Positions 10,011 through 52,234 of a stretch of 64,000 nucleotides of DNA are shown one piece after another. Made by a program: the position numbers and the translations under genes. Where the stretch lies: the NCBI GenBank assembly GCA_918797485.1, contig CAKKNE010000001.1, positions 4,030,001 to 4,094,000 on the forward strand, given 5' to 3'. This DNA is from Pelagomonas calceolata (taxonomy: Eukaryota). Positions within the stretch are counted from its first letter, which is position 1. Every line of letters starts with the position of its first letter. The notes under the pieces were generated by a model that had not been told where the DNA came from, did not search any database, and was given only the letters and a program-made list of their open reading frames with translations.

Positions 10011-12121
10011 CTAGTGCAGCTGCGCGACGTCGTGCTCGCGCTCGTGGACGGACTTGAGGAGGTGCGTGAACTCCTGCAGCGAGATGCTCCCGTCCCGGTC
10101 GTGGTCCAGCTCCTCCACGAGGATGGTCATCTCCTCCTCCGTCATGCTGATGCCGAAGCGCCGCAGGCCCTCCGTGAACTCGCTGTGGGCCACGCTCCCG
10201 CTCCCGTCGTTGTCGAAGAGGGCGAACACCTTCTTCGCCGTGTGCTCGATGGACTGGTCGTTCTCCGACGTCTCCGCCTGCGTCGCCATGAAGCTGAGGA
10301 ACTCGCTCCGGCTCACCTGGCCGTCGCCGTCGTGGTCCATGCCGGTCAGCATCGCCGCCGCCTGCGCGCCCGACGACTCCATGCCCAGCGACGCCAGCAG
10401 CTCGCTGAGCTCGTCCGCGTCGAGGTGGCCCGTGCCGTCCGCGTCGTACAGGTCGAAGGTCTGGGCCAGCTGCCGCTGGTCCTCCTCATTCACTCCCGTG
10501 GCCGAGGCGCGCGGCGACAGCGCCTGCTCGGGGCCGCCCGGCGTGGCCGGCGCGGTCACGATCTGCGCCCGGAGGCCGTAGAGTGTCTTCAGGAGCTTCA
10601 CGGCGCGCGAGGCCTTCGTCTCCCGGAGGACCTGGCCGACCAGTTTCCGGTTGCGAAACGTGCCCACCGAGCCGCAGTGGATGGCCAGCGGCACGGCCTC
10701 GCGCGCGACGAGCGCGATGCCGACCGTCGGCGCGAGCGCGAAGAGGACGTAGCCGCCCGTCGCCGGCACCGACGAGTGCTTGCACACGCGCGGCGCGAAG
10801 GTCATCACGACCAGCGACACGTAGACCGCCTGGAGCAGCAGCAGGAGCCGGCAGGCGAAGACGTGCGACTCGTGGCCCTTCTCCTCGAAGAGGAAGAGCC
10901 GGTGCTGCTTGTTCGGCGCGTGCCCGCAGAAGAGCCGCCGCACGTGGTGCCGCTCCGCCTCCTCGATCCGCGCGTCGACGGCGCAGGCCCAGCCCGGGAG
11001 GTCCTGGCCGACGATCGGCGTGAACTCGCCCCTCGTGTCCGCGCCTCCAATGTAATCGCGCGCCGCCGGGTCCATCGTGCCCCGGGCGATCCGGCGCACG
11101 TGGTTCAGGAACGCGAGCGCCAGCGCGAAGATCGCGTACTCGAAGGCGACCCAGCCCGCGGCCAGGAGGAAGGGCCCGTCGTTGACGGCCACGACGCCGC
11201 ACCACGCGACGGCCAGCGCCTCGAGGACGACCCAGGTCGGCCAGTCCACGTCGACCATCTCGACGAGGTCCTCGGACAGCGAGAGCATGAGGTAGCGCGC
11301 GTAGTCGAACGTGGCCGGGAGCCTGTTCCTGGAGTCGGCGTGCGGCGGGAGGAGGCTCCGGTCCCGCAGGAACTCCTGGCGCATGCCCCAGTACGCGATG
11401 ACCTCCTTCTTCGACAGGCGGCCGAGGATCGGCGTGTTTGGTGAAGGCGGCGGCGGCGCGCCCGCGAGCCACGGGTAGGGCACGTTACTGTCCGCGACGG
11501 CCGCGCACCACTTGTCCAGGGCGCGCCACCTTCTCTTCAAGTTGTTGCCCACGCGCACCATGCCCATGACGAGCAATACAAAGACGATCATCACCAAAAA
11601 CAGCGTGTAGTGCGCCGTCTCCACGAGCTCCTCGAGCTCCTCCTCCTCGACCTCCTCGCCGTACAGCACGTGGGCCAGCAGGCCCCAGAGCCCGCACTTG
11701 CCCGCCACCGTCGTCACGATCGACAGGAAGCCGAGCACCGTGACCTCGGCGAACGTCTGCCTCACCACGGGCTTCATGGTCGGCACGCTCGAGTGGATCA
11801 TGTGCTCCTGGGTCCGTTCGAAGAAGATCGTGAGCGCGACGAGGAACGACAGGATGCCGAGCAGCGTCGCGGCCATGGTCACCTGTGTGGAAATCAACCA
11901 GTGCGTCGGGTGCACCCGATAATTCTTCACTAAGTCATTTCTCGGCGATGACGCGGCAGTGCTGGCCCCGTCGAGCGGTGAGGAACCAGCACCGCCACGC
12001 CATCGAGCAGGCATCACGTCGATGGCGTGGAGGTCGACGCTACGATGCAGCACGCAATTTTGATTTCCACACAGATGGTCACCTTGCCCATCTCCGGCGC
12101 CTCCTCGTGGAAATTTTCCAT
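10011..12121 (-). CDS. MLO-family membrane protein with C-terminal four-EF-hand domain; 2 exons (12121-12083, 11882-10011)
   Basis: EVTVLGFLS and TFDYARYL..SL.EDLVEMVDVDW..W match MLO motifs; EF loops DADGTGHLDADE, DHDGDGQVSRSE, DNDGSGSVAHSE, DHDRDGSISLQE. Confidence 0.8.
11883..12082 (-). mobile_element. Introner (200-nt GT-AG intron)
   Basis: TIRs begin 11883 and end 12074; perfect TSD ATGGTCAC at 11875-11882 and 12075-12082; splicing gives MGK|VTM. Confidence 0.95.
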
Positions 12122-12464
12122 GGCCTCGGCTCGTCCGGGCAGCCCGCGCCGCCCGCTGCGACGCGTTTGCCTCCAAGCGGCGCGCTCGATCTCGATGACA
12201 GCGATTTCAGTGGCGGGTTTTGCGGCCGCATAGCTTTCGTCCCTCATGTCTCGCTTGGAGACGCTCCCAGGCGCCCCCGGCGCTCGCATGCCACTGTCCG
12301 ATGCAAGCTCGCATTTCTAGAGGGACTCTACTCTGCCTCTGCCAAACCTGCCCAGAAATCGGCCTCTCCGCGCGTCTCGAAGCTGCCCTTCGCTCGCCGG
12401 GTCTCGGAGCAGTCGATTTCGAGCAGTCCTGCGGCTCGTGGCAAGGGAGCCATCACTGTCTGCG

Positions 12465-12571
12465 GCTGAGCCTCCGCTGGGGGCAGCATAAGCTGTGAGC
12501 TGAGCCTCTGAGCCTCCGCTGGGCAGCATTGCTGGGCTGAGCCTCTGAGCCTCCGCTGGGCAGCATTGCTG
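12465..12571. repeat. Tandem repeat, ~37-bp unit, two full copies plus one partial
   Basis: GCTGAGCCTCTGAGCCTCCGCTGGGCAGCATTGCTG at 12499 and 12536; partial copy at 12465. Confidence 0.9.
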
Positions 12572-12597
12572 CCGCGCGGCGCTGTCGCGGCCAGACC

Positions 12598-13188
12598 ATG
12601 GTGATGATCGCCGTGAAGGTGCCAGCCGGGGCCGTACCCGGGGATAAGGTCGACGCCGTCTACGACGGCCGCCGGGTGTCGTTCGTCGTGCCCCCATCGG
12701 TCCGGCCTGGCCAGTCAGTGCACGTGCCCGTGCCGGCGTCGGACAACAGGAAGGGCTCGCCCGAGCTACAGGCGCGGTTGCAGAAGCTCAGGGCCACGTC
12801 GTCGCGCAAGCTCAAGACGCCGTCGCCCACTACGCCCTCGTCTTCGCCTCTTCTGCTCTTCACGAAGAAGACGCCGCCGGCGAAGCCGGCGCGCCCGTCG
12901 AACGCCGAGCCCGTGGCGTACGCTAGCGTCCCCGGCGAAGCTCCAGACGACATTACCGCGAGCGCGGACCCCCCGCCGCGCCCTCCGCCGCGCCGCGACG
13001 AAAACGGGGCCCGAGCATTCGCCAAGGCGCCGCGCCAATCGCCGCCCGCCGCGGTCGCGGCCGCCATGCCCTACGCCGACGTCGAAGGTGAAAGCGCCGA
13101 CTTCTGCGGCTGGCTCGAGCCCATCCGGAGCATCACGTACGAGGCGTCCGACGACGAGCGGCCGTTCGCGTGCGGGTGCGTCGCGTAG
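12598..13188 (+). CDS. Hypothetical Pro-rich protein
   Basis: N-terminal V.VPAGA.PG..V / FVVPP.V.PG repeat; Cys-containing C-terminus (CGCVA). Confidence 0.6.
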   Translation: MVMIAVKVPAGAVPGDKVDAVYDGRRVSFVVPPSVRPGQSVHVPVPASDNRKGSPELQARLQKLRATSSRKLKTPSPTTPSSSPLLLFTKKTPPAKPARPSNAEPVAYASVPGEAPDDITASADPPPRPPPRRDENGARAFAKAPRQSPPAAVAAAMPYADVEGESADFCGWLEPIRSITYEASDDERPFACGCVA

Positions 13189-13291
13189 CTCTGCCTCGGT
13201 CCCCTACTCATCACTGGCGGCGCGCGTGTATAAGCCATCTTGCAATTATCGCCCTTGGCCGGATTAAATTTAATTGTCACACAACAACCAG

Positions 13292-14288
13292 TTAGTTACA
13301 CGGGCGGTAATGCTCGCACGGCACGGCCACCGCCTGGACGACTGGCATCTCCAGCCCGTCCGCCGATTGCGCGACGCCGACCGGCATGGACGACACAGCC
13401 GTCACCTCGGCGAGGGGCGGCAGGGGTCGGACGCGCATGCGCTCCAGTTGCTTCGCCCGCCGCCGCGCCTTCATGATCGAGTGCGCGAACGTGAGGAGCG
13501 TGCCGCCGCAGATGGTGACCAGCACCGTGATCCAGAAGATGTCTATCGGCCGGCAAAAATCAGTGTTGTCGAGCTCCTTCCGGTGTGCGAGGTAATGCGC
13601 GGAGGGCACGCCGCCCAGTTCCGTGTGCTCGCAGACGCACCCCGTCGCGCAATGGACGCCGCGGTAGCTGCGCGACAAGACACAAGACGTGTCGACCCAG
13701 CGCTTGCTGCCCCGGAAGTTGATGTAGGCGCACTGGCTCATCTTGCACATACCTGTGTTGACGCAGAGCCTCCGATGGCGTGCCGCGATGGTTCCGACTC
13801 AGATGCGCACCCACGTCCGCCGGGTAGCCGCGGCGCCAGGCCGTGAACGAGTGATCGGGGCGCGCCGCGCTCGTCCAGCGCCAGCCCGAATCCGGCGACT
13901 TGTAGGTGCGCTGGTAGGCGCCGATGAGCAAATCGATGTCCTCGCCGACGAAGTGCCGCAGGAGCCGCTGCTGCGCCTGGTCCTCGACGCTTACTAAGGT
14001 ACCGCCGAGGCTGTTGCAGCCCTTCTCGCAGTCGCGGAAGTGCTTCCCCGGCGTGCCGGCGGCGTTGCACATCGACCACATCGTTTTATTACCGATCGTC
14101 GTAGCGCCGCTCGGCGGTACGAGGATGTGCCACCTCCCGACGCGCGCGTCTATCACGCGGTTGCGACCCTCCGGCCACCACTCCGGCCAGGTCGCGTTCG
14201 TCGCGTTCGTCGTTGGTGTCGTCGCGTTCGTTGCCGTCGCGCGGAGCGGTGCCGCGAGCACGACTGCTGTCAGCAGCAGACGCATCAT
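13292..14288 (-). CDS. C-type-lectin-like single-pass membrane protein; 2 exons (14288-13811, 13752-13292)
   Basis: Signal peptide, C...GGTLVSV, IGA..WRW..W..G.P, W.D..C, CVCE, transmembrane helix; 58-nt GT-AG intron joins the frames (939 nt). Confidence 0.75.
13753..13810 (-). mobile_element. Decayed introner-like intron (58 nt)
   Basis: GT plus 6 nt, then TIR-like CTGAGTCGGAACCA; internal CACGCCATCG; ends AACACAG. Confidence 0.45.
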
Positions 14289-14557
14289 GGCACTGGAGTC
14301 TGAGGGGCAGCCTGCACACGCCAGCCGTGCGAGCAGTGCGAGGCAGCCCCGCGGCGGTACGTAGGCGATGCTTGACCGAGGCCTGCGCCTTGAGGCCGCC
14401 ACCGCGCGCCGCTTCCGATGCACTGGTTCCAGCCACCACCACAATGTCATGCACATTTGGCCCAGCCGTTTGGCCTCCCATTGCCAGAGTGCACGGGTCC
14501 GGCTTAAAGTTATTTTCACTGCTCTTTGCACTGGCTGGATGTCTCCTTGACTCGTGC

Positions 14558-14580
14558 AGCTAGCGGCTGTAAGACACTAG
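14558..14580 (-). promoter_or_regulatory. Representative copy of the recurrent intergenic CTAGT...CGCTAGCT motif
   Basis: CTAGTGTCTTACAGCCGCTAGCT; at least 11 related copies in other intergenic regions; function inferred only. Confidence 0.5.
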
Positions 14581-14757
14581 GGATGCCAAGCCTGGAGCCT
14601 GGCTCAGATCATCAAGCCTCTGACAGCTCGCAGAGCGCAGATCGAGGACGCCAAAGGCTTGATTCATAGCGGACCATCTCGAGTCGCACAGCTTAACACT
14701 GCGCAGCGGCAGGGCAGACTCGAGCCCCTCATTTGCAGCAACACGGCCAGCGCAGCG

Positions 14758-15366
14758 ATGGCGCGGCGCGCCCTCCTTGGCCTCCTCGCGGCGGCAGCCG
14801 CCGCCTTCACGGCGCCCCGACGACGGCCAGTCCTCGCGCCCCGGCGCGGCAAGGGCTTCGGCGCCGACGCCGAGAAGCCGAAGAAAAAATCGCGGTCGGC
14901 CGCGCCGACGATCACCGTGGACGAAATCGTGGACGACGACGACGCCCCCGCGCCGGCGTCCGAGGGCGAGATCTTCGCGAAGTACGGCATCGACTCGTCG
15001 GGCCGCGCGCCGACGACGGCGGCGGTGCCCGAGCCCGAGCCGCCGTTCACGCCGCTCAAGGACGTGCCGGACGACGTCCAGGTCGCGGCCGAGAAGATCC
15101 TGCTGGGCGGCGGGCTCCTGTGCCTGGCGGTCTTCGTCTTCATCGGCGGCGCGATCACGGTCGACGCGTTCAGCGTCGCGTCGGGCAGCCCGCTCGAGCC
15201 GGGCATGAAGGCGTTCATCGTGGACGTGCTCGAGCCCAAGTTCACGCCCACGCTGGTCGCGGGCTTCGCGTGCTCGATCTCGCTCGGCGGGCTCAAGGCG
15301 CTGCAGCTCACGTCCGACGACGCGCAGTACAGCGAGGGCGTCCAGTACTCCGAGGAGGACGACTAG
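14758..15366 (+). CDS. Putative plastid-targeted two-TM membrane protein
   Basis: AAA-FTAP presequence, KGFG motif, two hydrophobic segments. Confidence 0.7.
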   Translation: MARRALLGLLAAAAAAFTAPRRRPVLAPRRGKGFGADAEKPKKKSRSAAPTITVDEIVDDDDAPAPASEGEIFAKYGIDSSGRAPTTAAVPEPEPPFTPLKDVPDDVQVAAEKILLGGGLLCLAVFVFIGGAITVDAFSVASGSPLEPGMKAFIVDVLEPKFTPTLVAGFACSISLGGLKALQLTSDDAQYSEGVQYSEEDD

Positions 15367-15493
15367 GCGCGTAAGAGATCGCGCCGCCGTCCGCCGTCCA
15401 CCTCGTTCGAACCCCGCACCTTAGAAAGGCAGCTTTCCAGCTGCGCTCGGGGGCTGCCTTCATCAAACAGCAGAAGCCAGCGGCGCAGCCAAG

Positions 15494-16279
15494 ATGCCCT
15501 TCTCCCTTTTGGCGCACCAGAGCACGATCCTGCCGCTCGCGACGGCGGGTCTGCTGGGCGCGGGCATGGCGCGCCTCAGCTACATCCTGATGGACGTGCT
15601 GGACGACGACAGCAGCGAGGCGCGCACGGACCAGCGGATCCGGCTGCTCGACCGCGTCATGCGCCTCAAGGCGAAGCCGGGCGTCGTGGTCGTCGAGGCG
15701 AGCGACGCGGACGTCGACGGCGGGCTGTACCGGCCCGAGGACTGGCGCAGCGAGCAGATCCAGGACTACGCGGCGCGGACGTGCCAGACGGCGTGCCTCA
15801 CGGCCGACTGCCAGACGTGCGTGGGCGCCGAGCCGGACGAGGGCCGGGTGGCCTTCGTGACGGAGCGGCGCTTCAAGCCGGCGCGGCCCGTGCGGGCGGT
15901 CTCCGCGGCGCCGCTGACGAAGGACGCCGACACGTTGAGGCGGCGGGCGGCGCGGCCCGACGCCGTCGACGCCGTCGACGCGGCGGGCCTGTGCTACATC
16001 TGCTGCGACCGGCCCATGGACTCGGTCCTGCTACCGTGCGGCCACAGCGGCGCGTGCTACGCGTGCGCCGTCGAGAACGTCGCGCGCACGGAGCTGTGCC
16101 CCTGCTGCCGCGGCGCCGTCGACCAGATCGTGGTCTACGACCCGGCGTCGCGGAAGGACGAGGACGGGAACGCCGTGTTCCGCGTCGTGGGCCCGGGCCC
16201 CGTCGAGCGGTCGAAGAGCCGGCTCGACGCGCTCTACGAATATATGGGATGGACGGCGGCGGCGCCCGTCGCGACGTAG
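15494..16279 (+). CDS. RING-HC (C3HC4) finger protein
   Basis: CYICCD...LLPCGHSGACYACA......CPCCR. Confidence 0.85.
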   Translation: MPFSLLAHQSTILPLATAGLLGAGMARLSYILMDVLDDDSSEARTDQRIRLLDRVMRLKAKPGVVVVEASDADVDGGLYRPEDWRSEQIQDYAARTCQTACLTADCQTCVGAEPDEGRVAFVTERRFKPARPVRAVSAAPLTKDADTLRRRAARPDAVDAVDAAGLCYICCDRPMDSVLLPCGHSGACYACAVENVARTELCPCCRGAVDQIVVYDPASRKDEDGNAVFRVVGPGPVERSKSRLDALYEYMGWTAAAPVAT

Positions 16280-16346
16280 GCCCCGGGACTAAACACACCA
16301 CATGTTAGGAGTAGCCGCACCGGTCTTGGCACGGGCGAGCGGGCGC

Positions 16347-17480: not shown

Positions 17481-17849
17481 GGTGCTGGCCGTGGTGGGAG
17501 TGACCCAGGCTGAATTATGTTGTCCCTCCGCTTGGGGCCCGGTCCACTAGCACCAAGGACCTAAATTTCGATGCGTGGGGCTCCGCGCGGGCCTCGGGCT
17601 GGCGGCTACGCCCGGATCCTTCGGTCGGAGATCAGCTCGGGCGCTCGTCGCAGCGAACCCCGCACGCGCACGAGATGGCCGCAGAAACTTCCGTGGGACC
17701 GGAAGTAAGTGGACCTACAAGTATTTTCGTCGCGCGCTGGTTTGAGCGGGCCAGGCTTTGACCGCCGCGGCGTCGTCTCGGGCCCGGGCCCGCGCCCGCC
17801 ACCAGCGACGAGTTGTGACCGTCTCGTACACAAGAACACTTACGCGCTA

Positions 17850-19026
17850 CTACTTCGGCATGCTGCCCCGCGCGGCGCACGACGCCTGCCGCGCGACGCG
17901 GTAGCTCCGCGTCGCGTGGTGCGACAGCATCTTGTCGGCGACGTGCTCGTCGGCCAGGTGCTCCTGGTTGTAGCACGACAGCGTCTGCGCGACGCCGTCG
18001 TGGCCGCGCGCCGCCGCGTACTCCAGGGCCGTGTGGCCCCTGGCGTTCCGCCTGTGCACGATCTGCCGCCCGACGGTCCGCCGCAGCACGACCGCGAGGC
18101 GCTCGACGTCACCGATCTGGGCCAAGTAATGGACGATGGTGTTGCCCGCCGACGTCGCCTCCTGCAGCGTCGCGTCGTTGACCTGGCCGAACAGCGCCTC
18201 GAAGTCGCGGCCGTGCGCGTCGAGCAGCTGGTCCCAGTCGCAGCCCGCGGCCTGTGTGGAAATCAACCAGTGCGACGGGTGCACCCGACAATTCTTCACT
18301 AAGTCATTTCTCGGCGATGACGCGGCCGTCCTGGCTCGGTCGAGCGGTGAGGAACCGGCATCGCCACGCCATCGAGCAGGCGTCGCGTCGATGGCGTGGA
18401 GGTCGACGCGATGATTCAGCGCGAACGCGCCGTAAAATTTTGATTTCCACACAGCCCGCGGCCTTGGGGAGCGGCTTCGCCAGGGCCTTGGCGTCGGCGT
18501 GGATGGCCGACGGCGCGTACAGCTCCTTCGGGGCCTTCGGCGGCTTCTTCGCCCGCCGGCGCCAGAACTTGCGCCGCGACTTTTTGACGAGGCGGTCCTC
18601 CTCGAAGCGCGCGACCATGACCTCGAAGTCGCGGGGCGAGACGCGGCCGTGCTGGTCCGCGCCCACGTCCAGCATCATGCGCTTGGTCTGCGCCGTCGAG
18701 ACGCCCTTGCCGAGGCGCTCCCTGAGCCGGTCGCGCGCCTCCGAGACGTCGTAGTAGGCGGTCACCTCGGCGACGACCTCGACGAGCTTCGGCTCCTTGA
18801 CGACGCTGCGTCGCACCAGGCCCCAGCGGCTCGCGGCCCGGGTCTCCGCCGGCTTCGGCGGCGGGTCCGCGGGCCGCCGCGCCGCGCGGCGCTTGCTCTC
18901 GCGCCGCTTGATCTTGCGCCGCGGGGTCTTCTCGGGCTCCGCCTCGGACTCCTCCTCCGCGAGCGGCTCCCCGCCGAAGCAGGTGAGGAAGGCGTCGTCC
19001 TCGCGGCAGCCCATGCAGGCGAACAT
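17850..19026 (-). CDS. Ankyrin-repeat protein (paralog B); 2 exons (19026-18463, 18251-17850)
   Basis: GNTIVHYLAQIG, GHTALEYAAARG; C-terminus similar to paralog A. Confidence 0.75.
18252..18462 (-). mobile_element. Introner (211-nt GC-AG intron)
   Basis: Perfect 15-bp TIRs spanning 18252-18454; perfect TSD CCCGCGGC at 18244-18251 and 18455-18462. Confidence 0.95.
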
Positions 19027-19510
19027 CGTTACTTGCGTCTGTGGGAGGCTGCCCTCGGGCGGGAGTCTGGGTCGGCGCTGGCGTAGTGCGCAGTTGGACC
19101 GTGCCCGGGCTGCCCAGATATCTCGCGTGCCTGGCGTTTGCCCGGTTGTAGGTAGCTGTTACTCGGGTCTTGGGGGGCTAGCACCTAGGTCTGTCGGCAG
19201 AGGCACAGCGTATACACAACGTTTCACATGCAGCGTTCAGAGGCATGCACCCATTGCATGCCTCGGAAATTCGAACGAACCCGTACGAAACACAAAAAGA
19301 ACCCTAGCCCTCTGACCCCTCTTGGGAATCGCGCAGTAGGTCTGGGCCCGGGAACTCGCACACCTTCAAAAACCCGTTTTGCAGCGGGGAGCTTGCAAGC
19401 TTGGCTCTCTCTGTGCGCTTTCCAATAACCATCTGCATTCGGCGTTACCGCCTCCGCCGCGATTTTAGCCGATTTGTGGAGGCCCTGTGCTGTCGACCGG
19501 TCGCAGCGGT

Positions 19511-23097: not shown

Positions 23098-24100
23098 ATG
23101 CAGCTCAAAGCCATCAATGGCATCATCGCATTGGCATGCGCCACCAAAGCGCTGCAGCGGCCACGCGTCATCATTGCGCCCGCGCAATTCGGCGTGCCGA
23201 AGGATTACGACGACCTGAGCGCGTTGCTCCGGCAGCGCGGCCACACCGTCGCGTGCGCGCCGCTGAGTCGACTCTCGTGGCTGCGAATCGTGCCATCGGT
23301 TTTCACCGAAGCGTTTTTCAAGGGCGAGCTCAAGCCGCAGGGCACCCTGGACTTCTTCTTCGAGGCGCTCGACGCGGCCGTCGCGGACGTGGGGCCGGAC
23401 GAAGACATAGCAATCCTAGGCCACAGCATCGGCGGCTGGGTGGCCCGCGCGTGGGTCGTCGACCGGGGCGAGCAGCGCGTCAAGCGCTTCGTGACGCTGG
23501 GCACGCCGCACAACGAGCCCCCGGAGGGCCTGTTCTCGAACATCGACCAGACGAGAGGTTTACTGAAATACGTCCGCGCGAACTGCCCGCCGGACGCGTC
23601 CATTTTCACGTGCGTCGCGGGCACGGCCACGTCGACCGCCGCGCTCGGCGACGTCTTCAAGCTCGATGCGTGGGACGAAGAGTTGAGGCGGAGCCCGCTG
23701 CTCGAGGCGCTGGTCTCGTTGCCGTCCTACCTGGCGCTCTCCGGGAAGAACCCGTTCGGCGTCAAGGGCGACGGCCTCATCCCCGTGGCGACGGCCAGTG
23801 CGGAAATCAACTAGTGCGTCAGGCCGGCCTGGAGGTATTATTTGCTATTCTGGCCGCCTCGACGCAGCGCGAGAGTGCTTGGCGTCCTCGCACGAGGCGT
23901 CTTGGGCTTACTCGCCCGAACGTTTGATTTCCGCACAGGCGACGGCCTGCCTCGCGGACTGCCCGTCCATCGAGGTCGACTGCCACCACAGCGACTTCGT
24001 CCCGACGGCGCTGGACTCGATCCGCCTGCCGGAGACGTACCCCTGGTACGGGTCGCCCGCGGTCTTCGAGGCCTGGGCCGACGCCCTAAGCATCAACTAG
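23098..24100 (+). CDS. Alpha/beta hydrolase (PGAP1/lipase-like); 2 exons (23098-23787, 23939-24100)
   Basis: GHSIGG nucleophile elbow, VTLGTPH, GDGLIPV; probable catalytic His lies in exon 2. Confidence 0.85.
23788..23938 (+). mobile_element. Introner of a different subfamily (151-nt GC-AG intron)
   Basis: TIRs CAGTGCGGAAATCAA / TTGATTTCCGCACAG; perfect TSD GCGACGGC at 23788-23795 and 23939-23946; different interior. Confidence 0.93.
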
Positions 24101-24754: not shown

Positions 24755-26900
24755 ATGAAAGGCCATCATCACCGGCGCCGCAACAGCGCCGTGCGCCTCT
24801 TCGTGGCGACGTGGGTCTTCATCGCGGCGCTATGCACCGCGGCCGTGCTGACCACGTGGGCCACGACGAGCGACGAACCGGTGCACAGCGCGCGGCCGCC
24901 GCCCCCGCGGCTTGACGACACGCGCCGCGCCGTCGCCCTGGCCCTGGCGCCCTGCGCCCCGGAGATGCAACTGTGCACCGCGGTGACGCGGGATCCCTTC
25001 CCGCGAGCGACCGGGACCGCAAAGGACGCCACGGTGACGGCGGAGATGCGATCCGTCCTCGGGCGAACGCTCGCGACGATCCGAGACGACGGCGCGGGCG
25101 ACCTCCGGCCGGCGCCGGCGCCGCGCGCGACGTGCGTCGTGCCGACACGGGACGGCACCTTCGCCCAGAGGTTGGCCGCCTGGGCGGCGCAGCAGGCGCC
25201 CGGCCGCGTCGTCTTCACGGTCGCGGACGCGAACTACGCCGAGTACATGGCCGACGCGCGGCTCGACACCTCCCGGACGTTCGGGACCAATCTCTTAGTG
25301 GTCGCCCTCGACGAGGCCGCCGCGGTCGCCGCGTGCGCCGCGGGCTGCGCCGTCGTCCGGTTCGGCGGCGGCAAGGGCAAGGACGCGATCTACGAGGCCA
25401 AGTACGGCACGCTGCACCTCCTGCTCTCGCTGAAACGGGACGCGACGTTCCGGGAGATGGACGTCTGGCACCTGCGCGACCCGGCGGCGGGTACGAAGGA
25501 GGCGGACGTCGTGTTCAGCGTGCACCAGGACAACCCCTACAACATCAACGCGGGCTGGATCCACGCGCGCGGCGGTGTGGATACGGCGCGTTTGTTTGAG
25601 GACCTCGTGAAATACCTGAAATTAAACCCAAAGGCCTTCGACCAGCAGGTCCTGAACTGCATGGTGTCCGTGTCGTCGGCGCGGGACGAGTGCGACGCCA
25701 AGGGCGTCGCCGCGCAGGATCCCATCCTGCGGCGGTGGACGACGCCGCCGGCGCGGGTGACGCACGCGACCATCGGCCCCGACGTCCTCGTGGCCCACGC
25801 CCGGCCCTACGTCATGGCCTGTGCATAAATCAAATTGTCGAGGCGCGTCTCCGCCACTGCCGAATCATGACCTCCACGCCATCGACGCGACCGCCGGCTC
25901 GATGGCGTGGCGGTGTGGTCTCTTACCGCTCGATTCAGTCATCAAGGTCGCGCGTTCTCGCCGAGAAATGACTTAGTGAAGAATTATCAGGTATCCGACT
26001 CACTGTTTGATTGGCGCACAGGTCATGGCGGCCACGAGGGCGGTGCACGTGCTGACGACGATCCCGCTGACCGACGCGCGGGGCAAGACCGACGTCGCGC
26101 GCGAGCTCATGCTCTGGCCGGGCGCGCGGGACTACTATAGGGTCGGCGCGGGCCACCGCTACCTCGCGGTGCGCGGGGGCGTGCTCTCGACGTCGTCGCC
26201 GCACCACTTCCACGAGTGGCGCTGGGTCAACGCCGCCCTGACGGAGCTGGTCTGGCTGGCGCGGCTGACGGGCCGCGTGCTGGTCTGGCCGCGCATCTTC
26301 GATTTCCAGCAGTACCACCACGCGGCGGACCACGTGGATTTGCGCAGCGTCGAGGAGGTGCTGGGCGGCTGGCGGAGTTGGCGCGAGTCGACGTTCTTCG
26401 CGAACCCGCGGCTCGACGTGGCAGATGACGCGACCTACGCGTCCCTCGCGCTCCGCGGGTCGCGGGCGACGGTCACGCGGCGCAACCACTTCGACGGGCC
26501 GCCCGTCAACGCGCGGTCGTACGTGGTGAAGAAGACCGTTGACACGTGGGCCGTCGCCCTCGCGGACCCCGACCTGCGCGACGCGTCCGTCGTGACGGTC
26601 GACGTCGACGCGGCCGCGTTCCCCCTGAGCGACTGCTTCCACATGCGCGGAAGTTCCTGGTCCTGCGCCTCGTCCGTGAGCGCGGGGCGGGTCCCCCGCG
26701 AGCTCGCCCTGGTCCAGGCCAAGCTGAACTGGTGCCGCCAAAAATTAGGCTTCGACCACGCCAAGGCGCCGAACGGCGACGCCGCGCCCGTGGGCTACCA
26801 GCCCTCGAAGACGTGCGCCGTCCGCCTCGCGACAGGACTGGTGCGGAAGGCGCCGATCGCCCTTCCGGTGCCCGGGCGGAACTCGGCCGTAGAGAGTTAA
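24755..26900 (+). CDS. Nucleotide-diphospho-sugar transferase (GT77-like) type II membrane protein; 2 exons (24755-25810, 26022-26900)
   Basis: LVVALD, EMDVWHLRDP, NINAGW, FDQQVLN. Confidence 0.75.
25811..26021 (+). mobile_element. Introner (211-nt GT-AG intron)
   Basis: Diverged TIRs spanning 25819-26021; perfect TSD GTCATGGC at 25811-25818 and 26022-26029. Confidence 0.93.
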
Positions 26901-26966: not shown

Positions 26967-28742
26967 TCACGCCGCCGCCGCGGCCGACTTGTGCTCGCGC
27001 CGCATGCGCTCGAACATGAGATCCGTCTTCACGCCGGAGACGACGTGCGACGGGTCGCGCGGCTCAGTGATGGCGACGTCGCGGCGAGGAGGCGCATCAC
27101 CCCGTACGACGACCTTATTCTTGCCCTCGAAGCGCAGATATTCGAGCGTGGCGCCGGCCTTCGCCGCCAGGTAGTCGCAGAACTCGGCCGTCGTCCGCAC
27201 GGCCGCGGGCCGGTTCGGAAACAGGTCCGCGAAGACACAACAGGGCACGACGGCAAAGGGCTTCCCGTACTTGAGCGCGGCGTCGACGGCGGCCTCGGTG
27301 GCCTCGTCGGCGTGGAGGGCCACGATGGCCGAACAGCTTTCCAGTAACGCGCGACCTGTGTGGAAATCAACCAGTGCGTCGGGTGCACCCGACAATTCTT
27401 CACTAAGTCATTTCTCGGCGATGACGCGGCCGTCCTGGCTCGGTCGAGCGGTGGGGAACCGGCATCGCCACGCCATCGAGCAGGCGTCGCGTCGCTGGCG
27501 TGGAGGACGACGCGATGATTCCGCACGAACGCGCCGTAAAATTTTGATTTCCACACAGCGCGCGACCCTGTTCCGAAGCCTCGAACGCAGGATCCAGCAG
27601 CGCCTCGACGCGTCGCGGATTCCGGGCCATCAGCTGGTCCCGGGGCGACGAGTCCGGAGTGAGCGCCGCGAGCCGCTTCCGCAGGAGCTTCCGCCGGCTC
27701 TTGCGCGGGACCTTGGCCGAGCGCGGGTCGAGCGACACCGCCCGGAGCCCGTGGACGCACTGGAGCTCCCAGGCGAGCTGGCCTCGGCCGCCGGCCACCT
27801 GTGTGGAAATCAAAATTTTACGGTGCGTTCCTGAATCGCCGCGTCGTCCTCCACGCCATCGATGCGACGCCTGCTCGATGGCGTAGCGATGCCGGTTCCT
27901 CACCGCTCGACCGAGCCAGGTCGGCCGCGTCATCGCCGAGAAATGACTTAGTGAAGAATTGTGCACCCGACGCACTGGTTGATTTCCACACAGCCGGCCA
28001 CGTCGAGCACGGGCCCCGCCTCGAGCAGACTCCGTCCAAATCTATGCAAGATCCACGCGCCGAACTCCACGTGCCGCGCCGCGTGCCGCCGCTTACGGTT
28101 GTCGTCGCCGGGCACGAAGCGCCAGGCGTTCTTATTGGCATACTTGTCGTACGCCGCGAACGGGTCCGCCGCGTCCTGCTTGAGGTCGTGGTCCCGCCTC
28201 AATCTTAACCGCCGGCCCCACGTCTCCTCGAACGCGTCGCGAAACGCGTGCCGGTAGGGGCAGTTTTTCGTCGTGCACGCGTCGCCGCGCGCCCACACTT
28301 TACAAAGCACGTCCTTCTTCTCCCTTGTATCCGGGTTCTTCGCCGGCTTCTCCGCCGATGGCCTTTCCGTCAGGACCGCAAGCGCGTCGCAGCGCAACGC
28401 CCGGAGGCCTCGCCGCGAGCACGCGGGCTCTTCCCGCGCCTCGACGACGACGACGTCGGCCCGTTCGGCCGCCGGGGGGAACGTCGCGGCGGCGCACGCG
28501 AGCTGCCACTCGTCGTCCCGGCCCGTCCTCACGACGTCGAGGAACACGAGGTTCTTGCCGAGCCGCCGCCATCGTACTAACTTCGCTTCGAAGCGCTCGA
28601 GTGGTGCTTCGGTAGTTGCGGCGAGCGTGCGCTCCCAGCGCTGGGTCTTGTGGGTTGCAGCAGTGGGGCTCTCTGCGGGCACTGATGCGTTTTTGACGGG
28701 CACAGGCGTGGTGGTCGCCAGCACAGCAGTGGTGGTCGACAT
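26967..28742 (-). CDS. OB-fold-like + CCCH zinc finger + SAM-dependent methyltransferase; 3 exons (28742-28002, 27798-27567, 27355-26967)
   Basis: RRLGKNLVFLDV; CKVW...C...NCPYRH; spliced VLDVAGGRG motif I; LHADEATE, KPFAVVPCCVF. Confidence 0.8.
27356..27566 (-). mobile_element. Introner (211-nt GT-AG intron)
   Basis: Perfect TIRs spanning 27356-27558; TSD CGCGCGAC at 27348-27355 and 27559-27566. Confidence 0.95.
27799..28001 (-). mobile_element. Introner in opposite orientation (203-nt GT-AG intron)
   Basis: Perfect TIRs spanning 27799-27993; TSD CCGGCCAC at 27791-27798 and 27994-28001. Confidence 0.95.
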
Positions 28743-29698: not shown

Positions 29699-31048
29699 CT
29701 AGTGCTTCGCCGCCTCGTTGACCTCCGCGGCCCAGCGCACCCACTTCTCCCGCGACTCGGCCGCGTGCGCGCCGTCCATATGAGGCGACACGACGCGCGC
29801 GCCGATGCGCGCGTAGTCCTGGCACGCCTGCATGGTCTTGACGTGCTCGCCCTCGTCGATGGCGATGTTCGTGAAGACGTCGAGCAGCGTCGCGCAGTCG
29901 GGACGGCGCGTCTCCGGCGGCGTCGAGACCTGGAAGTCGTCGAAGAGATACAAGTCGCCCGACGAGTAGTACGACGTCGCGACGGCGGGCGCCGGTAACC
30001 TGTGCGCAATCAATCAGTGAGTTGGGTGGATCCGTCGAGCAGCGCCGCGTTAATGAGAAGCGCAGCGAAATCTGATTTGTGCACTGCCAGTAACTCCGCC
30101 AGCCGCTCGCGGTTTTGGACGACGAACGTGCCGTACGTGTCGACGGCATGCGCCTCTAGCAGTTCCATGAACTGGTACGCGATCCTAGGACTGAAAAAGA
30201 ATACGACGTTGAGGATCCAATAGTACCCAATCGCGACGTGGTAGCCCAGGAAGCGGTCGGACCACAGCGAATTCCCCCCGAGCGCCTCCATGATCAGGAG
30301 GTGGTGCCTGTGTGGAAATCAAATTTGCGGACGCCCCATCGACGCGACGTCGTCCCCGTAACGGCACCACAATTCTCACTGGTTGATTTCACACAGGGCG
30401 GTGCAACTCGTTCCACTCCTCCGCGTTGTGGACCTTGCGTAATTCTGGGCCGCGCCACCACCCGAAGGACTCGTAGAGGTGCAGCATCGAGACGTACGAG
30501 AAGTAGGGAATCCGCGCGATGACCTCCAGGAACCAGAAGCGTTGTATGGGCCGCTCGTCGAAGAGCGTGTCCAAGAACAGGCACCCCACATCATAGAGCT
30601 TGCGCGACACGGGGTGCGCGTCGACGCGGCCGCCCGACGCCTCGCGTTTCCGCTCGGCCTCCGTCACGGCCTCGTTCGACAGGACGAGGCCCAGCGACGC
30701 GGGCACGGCGCCCGGGTCCCGCTTCTGGAGCCCGATGCTTTCGGCCACCTGTCCTAGGATCGTCGCGCCCTGCTTGAGAAAGTTCGTCTGCGCGAGCTCC
30801 CACGCCGGCGCAGGGCGGTCTCCATCAAAATAGTTGGCCTGCTCGACGTAGTTCGGCATCGTTGTGGTCGTCTTGGTCGTCGTCACGGCGTCGGCGTCCG
30901 CGAGCTCGGCCTCCTTCGCGTCGATGAGCTGCGTAATCGTGTCACCGTCGTCGTGCGCTGCGCGGCGCGTCAATGCATGGCGACGGGCCGGCACGACGAA
31001 TGCCGTCGCGGATGCCGATACGGCGACGACGGCCAGGAAACTTCGCAT
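29699..31048 (-). CDS. PTOX: Plastid terminal oxidase (AOX/PTOX di-iron family); 3 exons (31048-30405, 30307-30095, 29999-29699)
   Basis: RFWFLEVIARIPYFSY..MLHLYE, EEWNELHHLLIME.LGG, E.HAVDTY, DEGEH; ATA-FVVP presequence; spliced CDS 1158 nt. Confidence 0.93.
30000..30094 (-). mobile_element. Short, aged introner (95-nt GT-AG intron)
   Basis: Degenerate TIRs spanning 30000-30086; TSD CCGGTAAC / CCAGTAAC (1 mismatch). Confidence 0.88.
30308..30404 (-). mobile_element. Short introner (97-nt GC-AG intron)
   Basis: TIRs spanning 30308-30396; TSD GGTGGTGC / GGCGGTGC (1 mismatch). Confidence 0.9.
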
Positions 31049-44033: not shown

Positions 44034-44480
44034 GGTCCCGGGTTATCCAGCGCGAGCAGGTGCTCTTCAGGTATCGCGAGGGGCTCGCACTTGTATTTGC
44101 CCTTGCCCGTCCGATGGTGGTGCTTGCAGAAGAACTGGTCGCACTTGCGGTCGACCCACTCCTTCTGGCCGTCCGTCTGCCTGCGCGCAATTCAACCAGG
44201 TGAGTCGGGTGCACGTCTGGAAGCGCCGTGAATTTGATTCGTGCGCCGCCGTCTGCAGCGTGCCGAACGAGGTCCCGGGCTTGACGTGGTGCGCGTGCTT
44301 GTTCGAGCGGCACCAGGCCTCGTCGTCGTGCGTCGCCATGGCCGCGAGGTGGTGCGCGGCGCGCGTGCGGGCGTTCAGGCGCCGTCGCTCGCGGTCGTCG
44401 GCCGCGCCGCGGAGGCGCGCGGCGGCGGCCGTCGTGGCCACGATCGTGGCCGCGAGGAGGCACGCGAGGGCGCGTCGCAT
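44030..44480 (-). CDS. Small secreted Cys-containing protein; 2 exons (44480-44257, 44180-44030)
   Basis: Signal peptide; WC....H.VKPG.SFG.L|Q...QKEW...KCDQFFC after splicing (375 nt). Confidence 0.7.
44181..44256 (-). mobile_element. Mini introner (76-nt GC-AG intron)
   Basis: Degenerate TIRs spanning 44181-44248; perfect TSD CCGTCTGC at 44173-44180 and 44249-44256. Confidence 0.88.
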
Positions 44481-44801: not shown

Positions 44802-46361
44802 ATGATGCGCCTGCTCGCAACCTTGCTGGCCGTGGAAGCGACCTATCCGGGCCCCCACCGCGGCTACCGGGGCATGCCCGAGACGGAGCGCATCGAATTT
44901 TATGAGAGGAACGGGTATCGCTGGCCCCCAACCAAAGCGACGCAGGGCTGGCCGCCCGTCGCACGGAAGGAGTCGGCCGCGTACAAAAAGTCCAGGGACG
45001 AGATGGAGGCGTGGATCCGGCGGAATTTGACGACGTACAAGGCGACCTGGGACGAGTGGTCCAGCATGGTTCAATCTAGGGCGATGCCCCGCTTCACGGA
45101 GAAGGGTTTCGCGGTCGTCGACTATAGTGATACGGAGTTCTACAGAGAGCTCAAGGCGCAGTACGATAAGAACGTGAGGGACCCCGTCGCCTTCTCGCAA
45201 CTACGAAAGGAGAAGATGCAGGGCACGGGGAATGCTCGATTTTATTCACAATCGCAATTGAACGCAAAGTTGTTGGACGGACTGAGACCGAACCTCGAAG
45301 AGTGGAGCGGGATTGAGCTGCAGAACGGCCAGTCCTACGGCGTCCGCGTCTACGGGGAAGGTTCCACATTGGTCAACCACATCGATAGATGTGAAACACA
45401 TGTAATTAGCGCGATCTTCCACATCGACCACGACCTCGACGAGCCCTGGCCGCTGGAGATTGAAGACCACGACGGCAATTGGCACGAGGTCAAACTCTGT
45501 GTGGAAATCAACCAGTGTGTCAGGTGCACTGGTAATTCTTCACTAAGTCATTTTGCGGCGATGACGCGGCCATGCTGGCTCCGTCGAGCGGTGAGGAACC
45601 GGCATCGCCACGTCATCGAGCAGGCGTCGTGTCGATGGCGTGGAGGTCAACGCGACGATTTAGCACGTACGCGCCGTAAAATTTTGATTTTCACACAGGT
45701 CAACCTCAAGCCCGGCGAGGTTTGTTATTATGAGTCCGCGAAGCAGTACCACGCGCGCTTGCAGCCGATGCGGGGCCGCGCCTACGCCAGCGTGTTTTTA
45801 CACTGGTTCCCGGCCCAAAATTGGAACTGGACGATGTGGGACGGCCACGTCATGGTGCCGCCGGACTTTGAAGAGAAGGAGGCGTCGGGCTTCTTCCGGC
45901 GGAGGGCCGTCGCGAACGCGGGGCCGCCGCCCTTCCTGCGGCATTTTGATGCTTATTGGTCGAAAAGGGGGCGGCCTTCCCCATCATTGCCGCGCGGCGT
46001 CGAGAACCCCGTCCAGGAGTACGAGGGCTTCGGCGCGCCGTCGCCGACGCCCGAGGAGACGCAGCGCTTGCGCGTGGTGAATGCGGCGGCGGCGCGCAAG
46101 CACGCGCAGCGGGGGGACGTGGCGGAGCTGCACGCGCTGCTGGACCGCGTGGCCGTCGACTTCTTGGACGACGGCGACGAGAACGGCTGGACAGCTTTAC
46201 ATGAAGCGGCCCGGAGCGGCCACGCCGACGTCTTGAGGCTCCTCGTCGCCAAGGGCGCCGACGCGGCCAAAAGGACGAAGTACGGCCAGAGCGTCCATGA
46301 CATCGCCCGCGACGCGCACGACGCGGACCACCCGGCCATGCGGTTCCTGGGGGAGTTGTGA
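44802..46361 (+). CDS. 2OG-Fe(II) oxygenase-like protein with C-terminal ankyrin repeat; 2 exons (44802-45488, 45699-46361)
   Basis: YGVRVY..GS.L..HID...THVISAI, YESAK..H.R, DENGWTALHEAARSG. Confidence 0.8.
   Translation: MMRLLATLLAVEATYPGPHRGYRGMPETERIEFYERNGYRWPPTKATQGWPPVARKESAAYKKSRDEMEAWIRRNLTTYKATWDEWSSMVQSRAMPRFTEKGFAVVDYSDTEFYRELKAQYDKNVRDPVAFSQLRKEKMQGTGNARFYSQSQLNAKLLDGLRPNLEEWSGIELQNGQSYGVRVYGEGSTLVNHIDRCETHVISAIFHIDHDLDEPWPLEIEDHDGNWHEVKLCVEINQCVRCTGNSSLSHFAAMTRPCWLRRAVRNRHRHVIEQASCRWRGGQRDDLARTRRKILIFTQVNLKPGEVCYYESAKQYHARLQPMRGRAYASVFLHWFPAQNWNWTMWDGHVMVPPDFEEKEASGFFRRRAVANAGPPPFLRHFDAYWSKRGRPSPSLPRGVENPVQEYEGFGAPSPTPEETQRLRVVNAAAARKHAQRGDVAELHALLDRVAVDFLDDGDENGWTALHEAARSGHADVLRLLVAKGADAAKRTKYGQSVHDIARDAHDADHPAMRFLGEL
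45489..45698 (+). mobile_element. Introner (210-nt GT-AG intron, in frame and stop-free)
   Basis: TIRs spanning 45497-45698; TSD GTCAAACT / GTCAACCT (1 mismatch). Confidence 0.95.
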
Positions 46362-46774: not shown

Positions 46775-47295
46775 GGTCTATTTATGCGCTCGCGGCGGCG
46801 GCGTGAGGGCGCGCGCCGCGGCGGCAGCGATGCCGCAGCGGCGGCGAGATTGTAGCTTGGGAGCGTCTACGCGGCGCAGCGATGCGCGCAGCCGGCGTAG
46901 CGGTTTGGATCACAACGTAGCGTACTCCTAGTCAGCTTTTTTGCGCTTCAGTTAAGCTGTATACGACGCGCGAGAGACGCCGCGCCTCGTGCTTTGCTGG
47001 CTAGTGTGTCTTACAGTCGGTAGCTGCGGGATGTCTGCGAGCTGTTGGACGTATTGGAGACGCGTACGGCACATACTAATACTACTAGACCGTCTCTAAG
47101 GCTCAGCTCCAAACAGCCCCAATTATTTCAGGCATCCATCCTCTCCCAAAAGCCGACACGACGTGTACGCTCGCCGCCGACCCCCGTTGCAAGCAAAGCT
47201 GTCGGTGCATCGCTAACACTCTTGCAAGCTGCCAACGCAAGGAAATTGCACGCCGCCACCGCTGCGCATCCAGCACAAACACAAATCGAAAAAAA

Positions 47296-50322: not shown

Positions 50323-50469
50323 GAAAACATTCCCGAGTCCTTGTTGTGGACCAAAGACCGCGGGCTGGCGGCGCGCCGGTTTCGTACGCGCGCCCGAGGA
50401 CGTCCAGCTAGCAACTTCCCCTTCTCTTCTGCTGTAAATAAAATTACCTAAAAGCCAACCATACATTTC

Positions 50470-50656
50470 CGGTTATGGTAACCGTACCGACCGTACCGTA
50501 CCTGTACGTACCTGGCTGGTACCTGGCTGGTACCGAGCCACAAAATCCAAAGCCGGCACCGCGTCTATTTATCGAGACGGCGAGACTGGGCGCAACAAGA
50601 GTCAGCGCAGACCAAAAAGGCCGACACCGCGTCGTATCTATCGAGACGGCGAGTCT
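50470..50656. repeat. Intergenic GTACC-rich simple repeat plus ~36-bp imperfect direct repeat (50552-50587, 50620-50656)
   Basis: ACCGTACCG and GTACCTGGCTG repeats; two copies of CACCGCGTC..TAT.TATCGAGACGGCGAG. Confidence 0.7.
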
Positions 50657-50775
50657 CAGACAGGCGCAAAACAGGCTGACTCCTGGCTGAGTCTAATTAC
50701 TAAAAATTCGATTGCCATACGCAAGGCAAGATAAGCACTCGCTCGCGGACAAACAGAGATTGAGTACTTAAACAA

Positions 50776-52234
50776 ATGTCGCCACTTTGTTTCATCCTGG
50801 CCGCGCTTGTCTGCGCGGCCCCGGAGGGACGGGATACGCGGCCTCGGGCACGGACGCCCCCGGGCCCGTCGACGTACTGCGGCCAGGGATACAGGTGCCG
50901 CGGCAGCGGCCGCGAGATGCGGTGCCACCCGGACGTCGCGTGCGACGACAGGGAATTAAGAAGTGGTCCGTGCGCGGTAGCGACCGCGTGCCTCGAAAAG
51001 TGCGTCGCGGACCCGGGGGGCGAGGCCTGCGACATGCCCTGCCACGGATCGCCGCTGCGCTCGCGCGCGACCGGCGCCGCCCCGCCGCCGGACCTGAAGG
51101 TTGCGTATTTTTTGAATCATCGCAAGGTGGCGGGGACGAGCATGCTCGCCGCGCTCAAGCGAGTCGCGGGGCGCGTCGGCGTCGACGGGGGCTCGCTGCT
51201 CGTCGCCAAGGAGGATCTCCGGCCCTTCAACCCGAATTTGTTCTGCAAACCGGAGACCAGCGCGGGCGTGCTCTACGTCACGGTACTTCGGCACCCGCTG
51301 CACCGGCTCGTGAGTTTGTACCACTCCGAGAACAACTTCGGGGACCGGAACCCGGCCGCGAACCGCAACGCAACGGCCTGGGGCGCCTTCCTCGACGGCT
51401 CGTGCACGCGGCACAGGTGCGCGGCGCCGAACTACTACACGCGGCGCTTGCTCGGCTTCGCCCGCGTGACGAAGGCGCCCGCGGACTGCAAACCGCGCGG
51501 GTTGAAGGGGCGGAACTCCGAACAATGCGACGTCGCGGCGCCGGGGACCTGCGCCGAGCCGACGTTCCACCCCCGGTGGCTCCACGACGTCGACCAGGCC
51601 GCGGCGCGGCAGATCGATTGCTGCAACGCCTTCGCGGAGGGCAAGACGCGCCGCGGTCGCCACCTGTGTGGAAATCAAAATTTTACGGCGTGTTCGTGCA
51701 GAATCGTCTCGTCGCCCTCCACGCCATCGACGCGACGCCTGCTCGATGGCGTGGCGATGCCGGTTCCTCACCGATCGACCGAGCCAACACGGCTGCGTCA
51801 TCGTCGAGAAATGACTTCGTGAAGAATTATCGGGTGCACCCGACGCACTGGTTGATTTCCACACAGGTCGCATCGGGTTCGCGTTCTCGTGCGACTGCGG
51901 GCGAGGCGCGGGCCGAGTGCTGAGCGACTTGACGAGCGACGTGGGTATCGCCGTCTCGTCGAGCGAGGTGGCCTTCCAGGTCGCGAAGCGTGTCCTCGAT
52001 GCGTTCGACTTCGCCGTGGCGCTGGAGCGCATGGACGAGCGCGCGGCGCAGAAACTCTCCCAACTCCTCGGCACGACCGTGACGTTCCCACACCACCGCA
52101 CAAGGGCCGGAGGCAGCGGCGGCTTCAACAGACTCGCCGCGGCCATGCCGACCAGCATCCGCGATCGCATCCTGCGGCAACACGACGTGGACGTGCGCCT
52201 CCACGCCTGGCTCGCGGCGCGCCCCCTCCCTTAA
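50776..52234 (+). CDS. Sulfotransferase-like secreted/Golgi protein; 2 exons (50776-51655, 51867-52234)
   Basis: 5'-PSB-like HRKVAGTS and 3'-PB-like LRHPLHRLVSLY; signal peptide. Confidence 0.78.
51656..51866 (+). mobile_element. Introner (211-nt GT-AG intron)
   Basis: Perfect TIRs spanning 51664-51866; TSD GTCGCCAC / GTCGCATC (2 mismatches). Confidence 0.93.

What the first reader, a model, noticed from the sequence alone, without database searches (positions are those of the whole stretch)
11875..51874. Introner family: TIR transposons that become precisely removable spliceosomal introns (11 copies in 64 kb)
Seen: 11 insertions at 11883, 18252, 23796, 25819, 27356, 27799, 30000, 30308, 44181, 45497 and 51664. 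They share ~15-bp TIRs (CTGTGTGGAAATCAA...TTGATTTCCACACAG) and 8-bp TSDs, and all are inside CDS. In gene sense every TSD starts with GT (7 copies) or GC (4 copies), and the TIR ends in CAG. Removing the first TSD copy plus the element leaves an intact frame in all 11 cases, checked by exon-length arithmetic. Established: introner elements with this logic are described in pelagophytes such as Aureococcus anophagefferens, so the mechanism is known; whether these families are catalogued is not. Inference: essentially every intron in this window derives from this source.
Basis: partly seen in the sequence, partly recalled or inferred. Interest (0 to 1): 0.9.

Follow-up and report, generated by a model that had tools for sequence, protein, structure and literature searches.

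The report
Pelagomonas introners, spliced out precisely
Short repeated elements that look like jumping-DNA copies sit inside this marine alga's genes and are cut cleanly out of its messenger RNA at the sites checked, a way of making new introns that is already published for this alga and its relative Aureococcus.

Summary
Confirmed and already known. All 11 elements are present, with TIRs and 8-bp TSDs (7 perfect, 3 at 7/8, 1 at 6/8). In gene sense 7 start with GT and 4 with GC, and all end in CAG. PolyA reads from one sample skip exactly element+8 nt at 5 of the 8 sites laid. Homologous proteins are colinear across 6 junctions, so 9 of 11 have support beyond frame arithmetic; 44181 and 51664 do not. 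In marine metagenomes, 75 of 75 further sites with a callable TSD have GT/GC there (32% expected). One spliced product is 100% identical to a Pelagomonas calceolata UniRef protein, and 956 putative introners with GT/GC donors, AG acceptors and TIRs are published for that species. Corrections: only 7 of 11 are ~200-nt copies; two more introns exist (13753 shown, 7998 predicted) whose introner origin is unproven; no empty site and no transposase were found. Small extras: GC donors 8 nt before the TIR are used although an in-frame GT lies 3 nt upstream (2 sites); four internally different subfamilies share a ~203-nt length; one in-frame copy is translated as protein in public databases.

The parts
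11883..12082 (-). 200-nt GT-AG intron = first TSD copy (12075-12082) + 192-nt element, phase 0, in an EF-hand membrane protein gene
   Evidence: 336 junction reads skip 200 nt; TSD 8/8; EF-hand Pfam
18252..18462 (-). 211-nt GC-AG intron = TSD + 203-nt element, phase 0, ankyrin-repeat gene
   Evidence: 204 junction reads skip 211 nt
23788..23938 (+). 151-nt GC-AG intron = TSD + 143-nt divergent element, phase 0, alpha/beta hydrolase gene; in-frame GT 3 nt upstream
   Evidence: 55 junction reads skip 151 nt
25811..26021 (+). 211-nt predicted GT-AG intron = TSD + 203-nt divergent-subfamily element, phase 0, nucleotide-diphospho-sugar transferase gene
   Evidence: 30 of 36 junction-spanning homologues colinear, 6 gapped, 32 of 68 do not cover it; not among the 15 RNA joints shown, low depth
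27356..27566 (-). 211-nt predicted GT-AG intron = TSD + 203-nt element, phase 1, CCCH-finger/methyltransferase-like gene
   Evidence: 4 of 5 spanning homologues colinear, 9 of 14 do not cover it; not among RNA joints shown
27799..28001 (-). 203-nt predicted GT-AG intron = TSD + 195-nt element in the opposite orientation, phase 0, same gene
   Evidence: 8 of 9 spanning homologues colinear, 5 of 14 do not cover it; not among RNA joints shown
30000..30094 (-). 95-nt GT-AG intron = TSD + 87-nt decayed element, phase 2, alternative-oxidase-family (PF01786) gene
   Evidence: 157 junction reads; 39 of 39 spanning homologues colinear, of 120
30308..30404 (-). 97-nt GC-AG intron = TSD + 89-nt decayed element, phase 2, same gene; in-frame GT at -3, -12 and +12
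   Evidence: 107 junction reads; 75 of 75 spanning homologues colinear, of 120
44181..44256 (-). 76-nt predicted GC-AG intron = TSD + 68-nt decayed element, phase 2, small protein of no known family
   Evidence: TSD 8/8 and ORF restoration only; no RNA laid, no Pfam hit
45489..45698 (+). 210-nt GT-AG intron (in frame, no stop) = TSD + 202-nt element, phase 0, ankyrin-containing prolyl-hydroxylase-like gene
   Evidence: spliced product 100% identical over 449 aa to P0226; unspliced read-through equals P0238; 28 of 29 spanning homologues colinear, of 63
51656..51866 (+). 211-nt predicted GT-AG intron = TSD (6/8) + 203-nt element, phase 1, sulfotransferase-like gene (weak Pfam hit)
   Evidence: ORF restoration; Pfam E 0.04; no RNA laid
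13753..13810 (-).
   Evidence: 24 junction reads; alignment score 40 against shuffle max 37.5 but random-segment max 46.5
7998..8073 (-). predicted 76-nt intron with an introner-type acceptor end; donor-side TIR and TSD eroded; donor position uncertain
   Evidence: TIR matrix score 25.4, nhmmer E 0.036; frame options; no RNA laid

Best explanation
These are introner elements of Pelagomonas calceolata: short TIR-bounded repeats between 8-bp duplications that are spliced out of mRNA together with the first duplicate (shown by reads at five sites), and that were likely spread as non-autonomous DNA transposons by a transposase not found here. Either TIR ends in CAG, so an element supplies a 3' splice site in both orientations. 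The duplicated 8 bp of coding sequence supply the GT or GC donor, and the second copy stays in the mRNA, which restores the coding frame. Insertions into coding DNA would persist only where the target starts with GT/GC (inferred; selection and target preference were not separated). After insertion copies likely shrink by internal deletion while the donor dinucleotide and the acceptor AG are kept.
For: Anatomy. RNA joints of 200, 211, 151, 95 and 97 nt, each element+8, with the strand of the predicted gene; sense-strand depth inside the 11883 element sums to 36 against 333 sense junction reads. Homologue colinearity at 6 junctions. 75 of 75 unique metagenome sites with a callable TSD start with GT/GC on one strand, background 0.32, and 63 of 75 with GT, background 0.11 (46 of 121 matches had no end called and were left out). 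The acceptor-side end keeps AG in 32 of 32, the donor-side end in 25 of 30, Fisher p=0.02. 19 of 24 long copies against 25 of 51 short ones have a perfect TSD. Species from P0226. Published IEs in this species.
Against: No DNA-level empty site among 86 junction queries against 120 loci plus the window (low power), and none visible in two DNA runs whose joint table was swamped by repeats. No autonomous element among the loci examined (75 with ends called, 32 of the 46 others looked at by hand), none in two viral-contig scans, and no PF05699 row in the held, truncated part of the species annotation. 3 of 8 laid sites were not among the 15 joints shown (35 more hidden). The RNA is one sample. 44181 and 51664 rest on frame restoration alone.
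Confidence: 0.93

Rival explanations
1. The copies spread through RNA (reverse splicing of an excised intron), as proposed for fungal introner-like elements, and the TIRs are incidental.
For: No transposase was found. The intron RNA folds strongly, z=-5.2.
Against: 8-bp duplications flank the copies (44 of 75 perfect). Copies lie in both orientations relative to the gene (7 and 4 in the window; 32 and 30 in metagenomes). The donor lies outside the repeated unit. Fungal elements lack TSDs and TIRs (passage).
Confidence: 0.03
2. They are ordinary MITEs that fell into pre-existing introns, UTRs or pseudogenes, and splicing is unrelated to their ends.
For: Abundant unspliced polyA reads come from other copies elsewhere in the genome (loose ends). 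An earlier survey placed only 40-44% of IEs in genes in two Pelagomonas MAGs (supplement rows).
Against: Joints equal element+8 nt exactly at 5 of 5 element joints shown. Junctions fall inside conserved protein stretches. GT/GC at 75 of 75 TSDs.
Confidence: 0.02
3. In-frame, stop-free copies such as 45497 are translated as 70-residue insertions (exonised) rather than spliced.
For: P0238 (NCBI, UniRef, nr) is the exact read-through. 47 of 283 fetched proteins carry element-like peptides.
Against: P0226 is 100% identical to the spliced form, and 28 of 29 spanning homologues lack the insert. The read-through proteins are likely gene calls on DNA (inferred). No RNA was laid on this site.
Confidence: 0.04

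Closest known systems
Putative introner elements of Pelagomonas calceolata (Guerin et al., 10.1101/2021.10.25.465678 and PMC9481584; passages and supplement passages seen)
   Same: Same species. Intron length peak about 210 bp (here 203+8=211), GT and GC donors, AG acceptor, conserved TIR, 956 putative IEs.
   Different: The passages seen give no TSD analysis, orientation, subfamilies or decay series. The logo (Fig S3b) and the repeat table could not be viewed, so sequence identity with their families is untested.
Aureococcus anophagefferens introners (Huff et al. 2016; paper not held, known from recall and from passages in 10.1101/2020.10.14.339549, PMC7789003 and 10.1101/2022.06.06.494994)
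   Same: One splice site carried by the element, the other recruited from the TSD; either orientation; TIRs; families of about 199-200 nt with GT and some GC donors (supplement rows).
   Different: Different host (orthologous protein about 60% identical). GC share is higher here (4 of 11; 11 of 62) than in the two large listed Aureococcus families (2-3%). TIR sequence identity untested.
Aureococcus sp. family 4 '+12 nt' introners (Gozashti et al. 2022, Fig. 2F legend seen)
   Same: 8-bp TSD, TIR, pelagophyte host; an in-frame GT lies 12 nt into the intron in 7 of 11 window copies.
   Different: At the RNA-confirmed sites that have this GT (11883, 18252, 30308) the joints shown use the TSD donor and add nothing to the mRNA.
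Polarella glacialis ILE classes 6, 8, 10 (10.1101/2020.10.14.339549; passages seen)
   Same: 8-nt TSD starting with the donor dinucleotide, both orientations, weak extended 5' splice site.
   Different: Dinoflagellate host; GA donors are allowed there and were not needed to explain any of the 75+11 sites here.

Membership tests
Pelagophyte TSD-donor introners | Multi-copy family whose similarity spans the intron | tested here: met
   7 copies of about 200 nt in the window; 75 unique sites in metagenomes
Pelagophyte TSD-donor introners | Terminal inverted repeats | tested here: met
   15-bp TIRs, perfect at both ends in 5 of 11, recognisable in the rest
Pelagophyte TSD-donor introners | Target-site duplication (8 bp) | tested here: met
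   7 of 11 perfect in the window; 44 of 75 perfect in metagenomes
Pelagophyte TSD-donor introners | 3' splice site carried by the element, 5' site co-opted from the TSD, precise removal | tested here: met
   5 RNA joints equal to element+8; 6 junctions colinear with homologues
Pelagophyte TSD-donor introners | Works in either orientation | tested here: met
   7 and 4 in the window, RNA-confirmed for both orientations; 32 and 30 in metagenomes
Pelagophyte TSD-donor introners | Non-autonomous (too short for a transposase) | tested here: met
   68-203 nt in the window, 72-262 nt among the 75
Pelagophyte TSD-donor introners | Empty orthologous sites with a single 8-mer | tested here: inconclusive
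   0 of 86 queries span an empty site, few orthologous loci held; protein colinearity cannot tell an empty site from splicing
Pelagophyte TSD-donor introners | Insertion into nucleosome linkers | not testable with these tools
   feature from a passage; no chromatin data
Published P. calceolata or Aureococcus IE families | Sequence identity with the published consensus or logo | not testable with these tools
   Huff 2016 not held; figures not held; the TIR string gave 0 hits in the supplements searched, parts of which are truncated or unreadable
hAT superfamily (features recalled, from no call) | 8-bp TSD | tested here: met
   other superfamilies also make 8-bp TSDs (recalled)
hAT superfamily (features recalled, from no call) | hAT-type terminus and a cognate hAT transposase | tested here: inconclusive
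   termini start CTGTG; the CAGTG form occurs at 2 of 11 window donor-side ends and 1 of 30 free metagenome ends; no transposase found

The most novel reading that the evidence does not exclude
The element itself tells the spliceosome where the donor is: the GT or GC lying 8 nt before the TIR is chosen with almost no U1 complementarity (2-3 of 11 matches at the three GC sites), even over an in-frame GT 3 nt upstream. This would be element-directed 5' splice-site selection. It would make the 14% GC-AG introns of Pelagomonas a by-product of introner targets, and most of its introns an ageing series of one 203-nt lineage.
Probability: 0.25. Interest if true: 0.65.

Novelty: already known. Interest (0 to 1): 0.22.

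Why it matters
The mechanism is a published route of mass intron gain, and these elements are reported for this species, so the finding is a confirmation. Three details could still be useful. (1) Donor choice without a donor consensus is directly testable in existing P. calceolata RNA-seq and bears on how minimal a 5' splice site can be. (2) A preprint attributes the species' ~14% GC-AG introns to high GC content; co-option of GC-starting targets is a more specific explanation. (3) In-frame copies are being translated into false 70-residue insertions in public protein databases.

Tried and rejected
No whole genome was held, so there is no genome-wide count; summed contig depths are no copy number. 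The first read lay (likeness 90, RNA plus DNA contigs) was swamped by reads from other copies, and its joint table gave neither intron joints nor empty sites. Viral-contig scans with 28- and 21-nt end patterns found 0. An autonomous partner was sought among the 120 loci and not found; copies with no end called mostly proved to be short copies with a decayed TSD or end (32 of 46 viewed). Proteins on 10-52 kb contigs (P0166, P0171, P0272, P0278) are colinear at some junctions but look frameshifted, so they were not used as empty-site evidence. Proteins spliced at one junction and read through at the next (P0135, P0142, P0148, P0283) could be partly spliced transcripts, so they were not used either. 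The idea that CAGTG is an ancestral hAT-like end turned into an acceptor is not supported: 1 of 30 free ends has it. A TIR-TIR RNA hairpin as the general donor-positioning device is not supported: the predicted stem is near 1.0 in long copies but 0.08 at 30000, which splices exactly, and donor pairing varies from 0.03 to 1.0. A special role for a branch-point-like motif in the TIR was inconclusive (small counts). A home-made gene-finding model fused genes and called antisense genes, so it cannot list all introns. The protein atlas gave no result. Two look-ups of earlier findings returned nothing. PMC3033335 was seen only as a search listing.
Full report
Observation. All 11 elements are at the stated starts. 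They are 192, 203, 143, 203, 203, 195, 87, 89, 68, 202 and 203 nt long. The flanking 8-mers match 8/8 in 7, 7/8 in 3 and 6/8 in 1, and both TIRs are the exact 15-mer in 5 of 11. Six copies are 89-97% identical, 25819 is 73-76% identical to them, and the four short ones are 56-79% alike to the others over aligned columns. A strict unbiased TSD+TIR scan gave 6 hits (5 elements and one pair made of two facing ends) against 0, 0, 1, 0, 0 in shuffles; a looser scan gave 27 against 3-14. In gene sense the first TSD copy starts GT in 7 and GC in 4, and all 11 end in CAG. The asymmetric inner ends show 7 copies in one orientation and 4 in the other. Removing TSD+element gives long ORFs in all 11; phases are 0 in 6, 1 in 2 and 2 in 3. 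That argument says nothing at 45497 (210 nt, no stop) and little at 11883 (13 codons upstream).

RNA. Four stranded polyA runs of one sample were laid on 11600-31500, which holds 8 of the 11. First mates read opposite to Pfam-supported genes. Of the 15 joints shown (35 more hidden), five skip exactly element+8 nt: 200 nt (336 reads), 211 (204), 151 (55), 95 (157) and 97 (107), each on the predicted strand. Where the TSD is imperfect (30000, 30308) the retained letters are those of the second copy. At 11883, sense depth inside the element sums to 36 against 333 sense junction reads. The sites 25819, 27356 and 27799 lie in low-depth stretches and were not among the joints shown. One joint is a further 58-nt GT-AG intron at 13753-13810 (24 reads). 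The other nine joints link element interiors and likely come from copies elsewhere in the genome.

Proteins. Spliced products were computed in scripts and aligned to fetched homologues. Alternative-oxidase-family gene: 75 of 75 and 39 of 39 spanning hits are colinear, of 120. 45497: 28 of 29, of 63. 27799: 8 of 9, and 27356: 4 of 5, of 14. 25819: 30 of 36, of 68. So 9 of 11 sites have RNA or homologue support; 44181 and 51664 rest on frame restoration.

Organism. P0226, a UniRef entry named Pelagomonas calceolata, is 100% identical over 449 aa to the spliced 45497 product, and Aureococcus anophagefferens orthologues are about 60% identical. P0238, held by NCBI, UniRef and nr, is the exact unspliced read-through, so a public gene model likely misses this intron. 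47 of 283 fetched proteins carry element-like peptides.

Family. For 75 a right end and TSD were called, and 46 were left out. All 75 have GT or GC at the start of the first TSD copy on one strand (background 0.32), 63 of them GT (background 0.11). In 62 unambiguous cases the donors are 51 GT and 11 GC, and positions +3 to +8 show no donor consensus. The called end keeps AG in 32 of 32 when it is the acceptor and in 25 of 30 when it is the donor side (p=0.02). Short copies mostly align to the 203-nt copy as internal deletions and have fewer perfect TSDs (25 of 51 against 19 of 24). Among 22 metagenome and 5 window copies of 199-207 nt there are five clusters at 80% identity; counting the two singletons as one divergent type (by eye), four internally different types share the TIR and the length. 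No empty site was found among 86 queries (low power). No long TIR-bounded element was found, and no match in viral contigs.

Mechanism. Shown: TIR/TSD anatomy, both orientations, exact removal at five sites, GT/GC at the targets. Inferred: DNA transposition by an unknown transposase, filtering of insertions by splice competence, and decay by deletion. One detail stands out. At 23796 and 30308 the joint uses a GC with 3 and 2 of 11 matches to the recalled donor consensus, although an in-frame GT lies 3 nt upstream. At 11883, 18252 and 30308 the in-frame GT 12 nt downstream is not among the joints shown. Nonsense decay would not hide these in-frame alternatives, but joints under 15% share or among the 35 hidden rows would be missed, and this is one sample. 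Folding gives no uniform explanation.

Every intron? Of 13 introns found or predicted, 11 are clear elements. The 13753 intron has element-like motifs, but it scored 40 against a shuffle maximum of 37.5 and a random-segment maximum of 46.5. The 7998 site has a strong TIR-type acceptor (score 25.4) and scored 46.5 against 33 and 49. The rest of the window has no RNA evidence, and my gene model was too noisy to settle it. The claim stays open.

Known work. Guerin et al. report an intron-length peak near 210 bp and 956 putative IEs with GT/GC donors, AG acceptors and conserved TIRs in P. calceolata, 15% of introns by a 90%-overlap rule (passages; supplement passages; logo and one scanned file not viewable; annotation file truncated). 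Huff et al. 2016 was not held; its model is taken from recall and from passages of 10.1101/2020.10.14.339549, PMC7789003 and 10.1101/2022.06.06.494994 / PMC9860276 (supplement rows; appendix PDF too large). PMC12130899 (passages) states that most introners are non-autonomous. 10.1101/2024.10.30.620910 (passages) reports about 14% GC-AG introns in P. calceolata and attributes them to GC content. Six library searches listed no paper devoted to donor choice in Pelagomonas introners; Huff 2016 and unseen supplements may cover it.

Verdict. Interest 0.22. The most novel open reading, element-directed donor choice, has probability about 0.25.

Noticed in passing
window 22778-22881: A second, intergenic repeat of about 104 nt with short inverted ends, 98% identical to a copy in L057, with very high summed contig depth in a DNA run; possibly a MITE.
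   Followed up: partly
window 1084-2061: A ~1-kb stretch without ORFs of 120 aa or more, 84-85% identical to stretches of L004 and L077; likely a dispersed repeat.
   Followed up: partly
loose ends at window 27352, 27356 and 18436 (reads from copies elsewhere in the genome): Hundreds to thousands of polyA reads retain an element at other loci. One seems to have a first TSD copy starting TT instead of GT in RNA sense (pairing of its two ends is inferred); another flank resembles a light-harvesting-protein motif (recalled).
   Followed up: no
L009, L012, L083, L099 and L008, L111: Element types with different interiors but the same TIR and 203-207 nt length; the first group lies in loci of 68-75% GC, perhaps another pelagophyte.
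   Followed up: partly
window 45489-45698 and the unrelated proteins among P0188-P0221: In-frame element read-throughs appear as ~70-aa insertions in many unrelated database proteins (for example PF00504, PF00705, PF00579 families).
   Followed up: yes
window 30308-30404: Related proteins read into internally different alleles of the same element, so this insertion is shared across populations and varies by indels.
   Followed up: partly
window 34244-34379: A tandem 68-nt duplication between two convergent genes.
   Followed up: no
window 14556-14591 and 47006-47027: A short intergenic motif also found in L021, L047 and L067.
   Followed up: no
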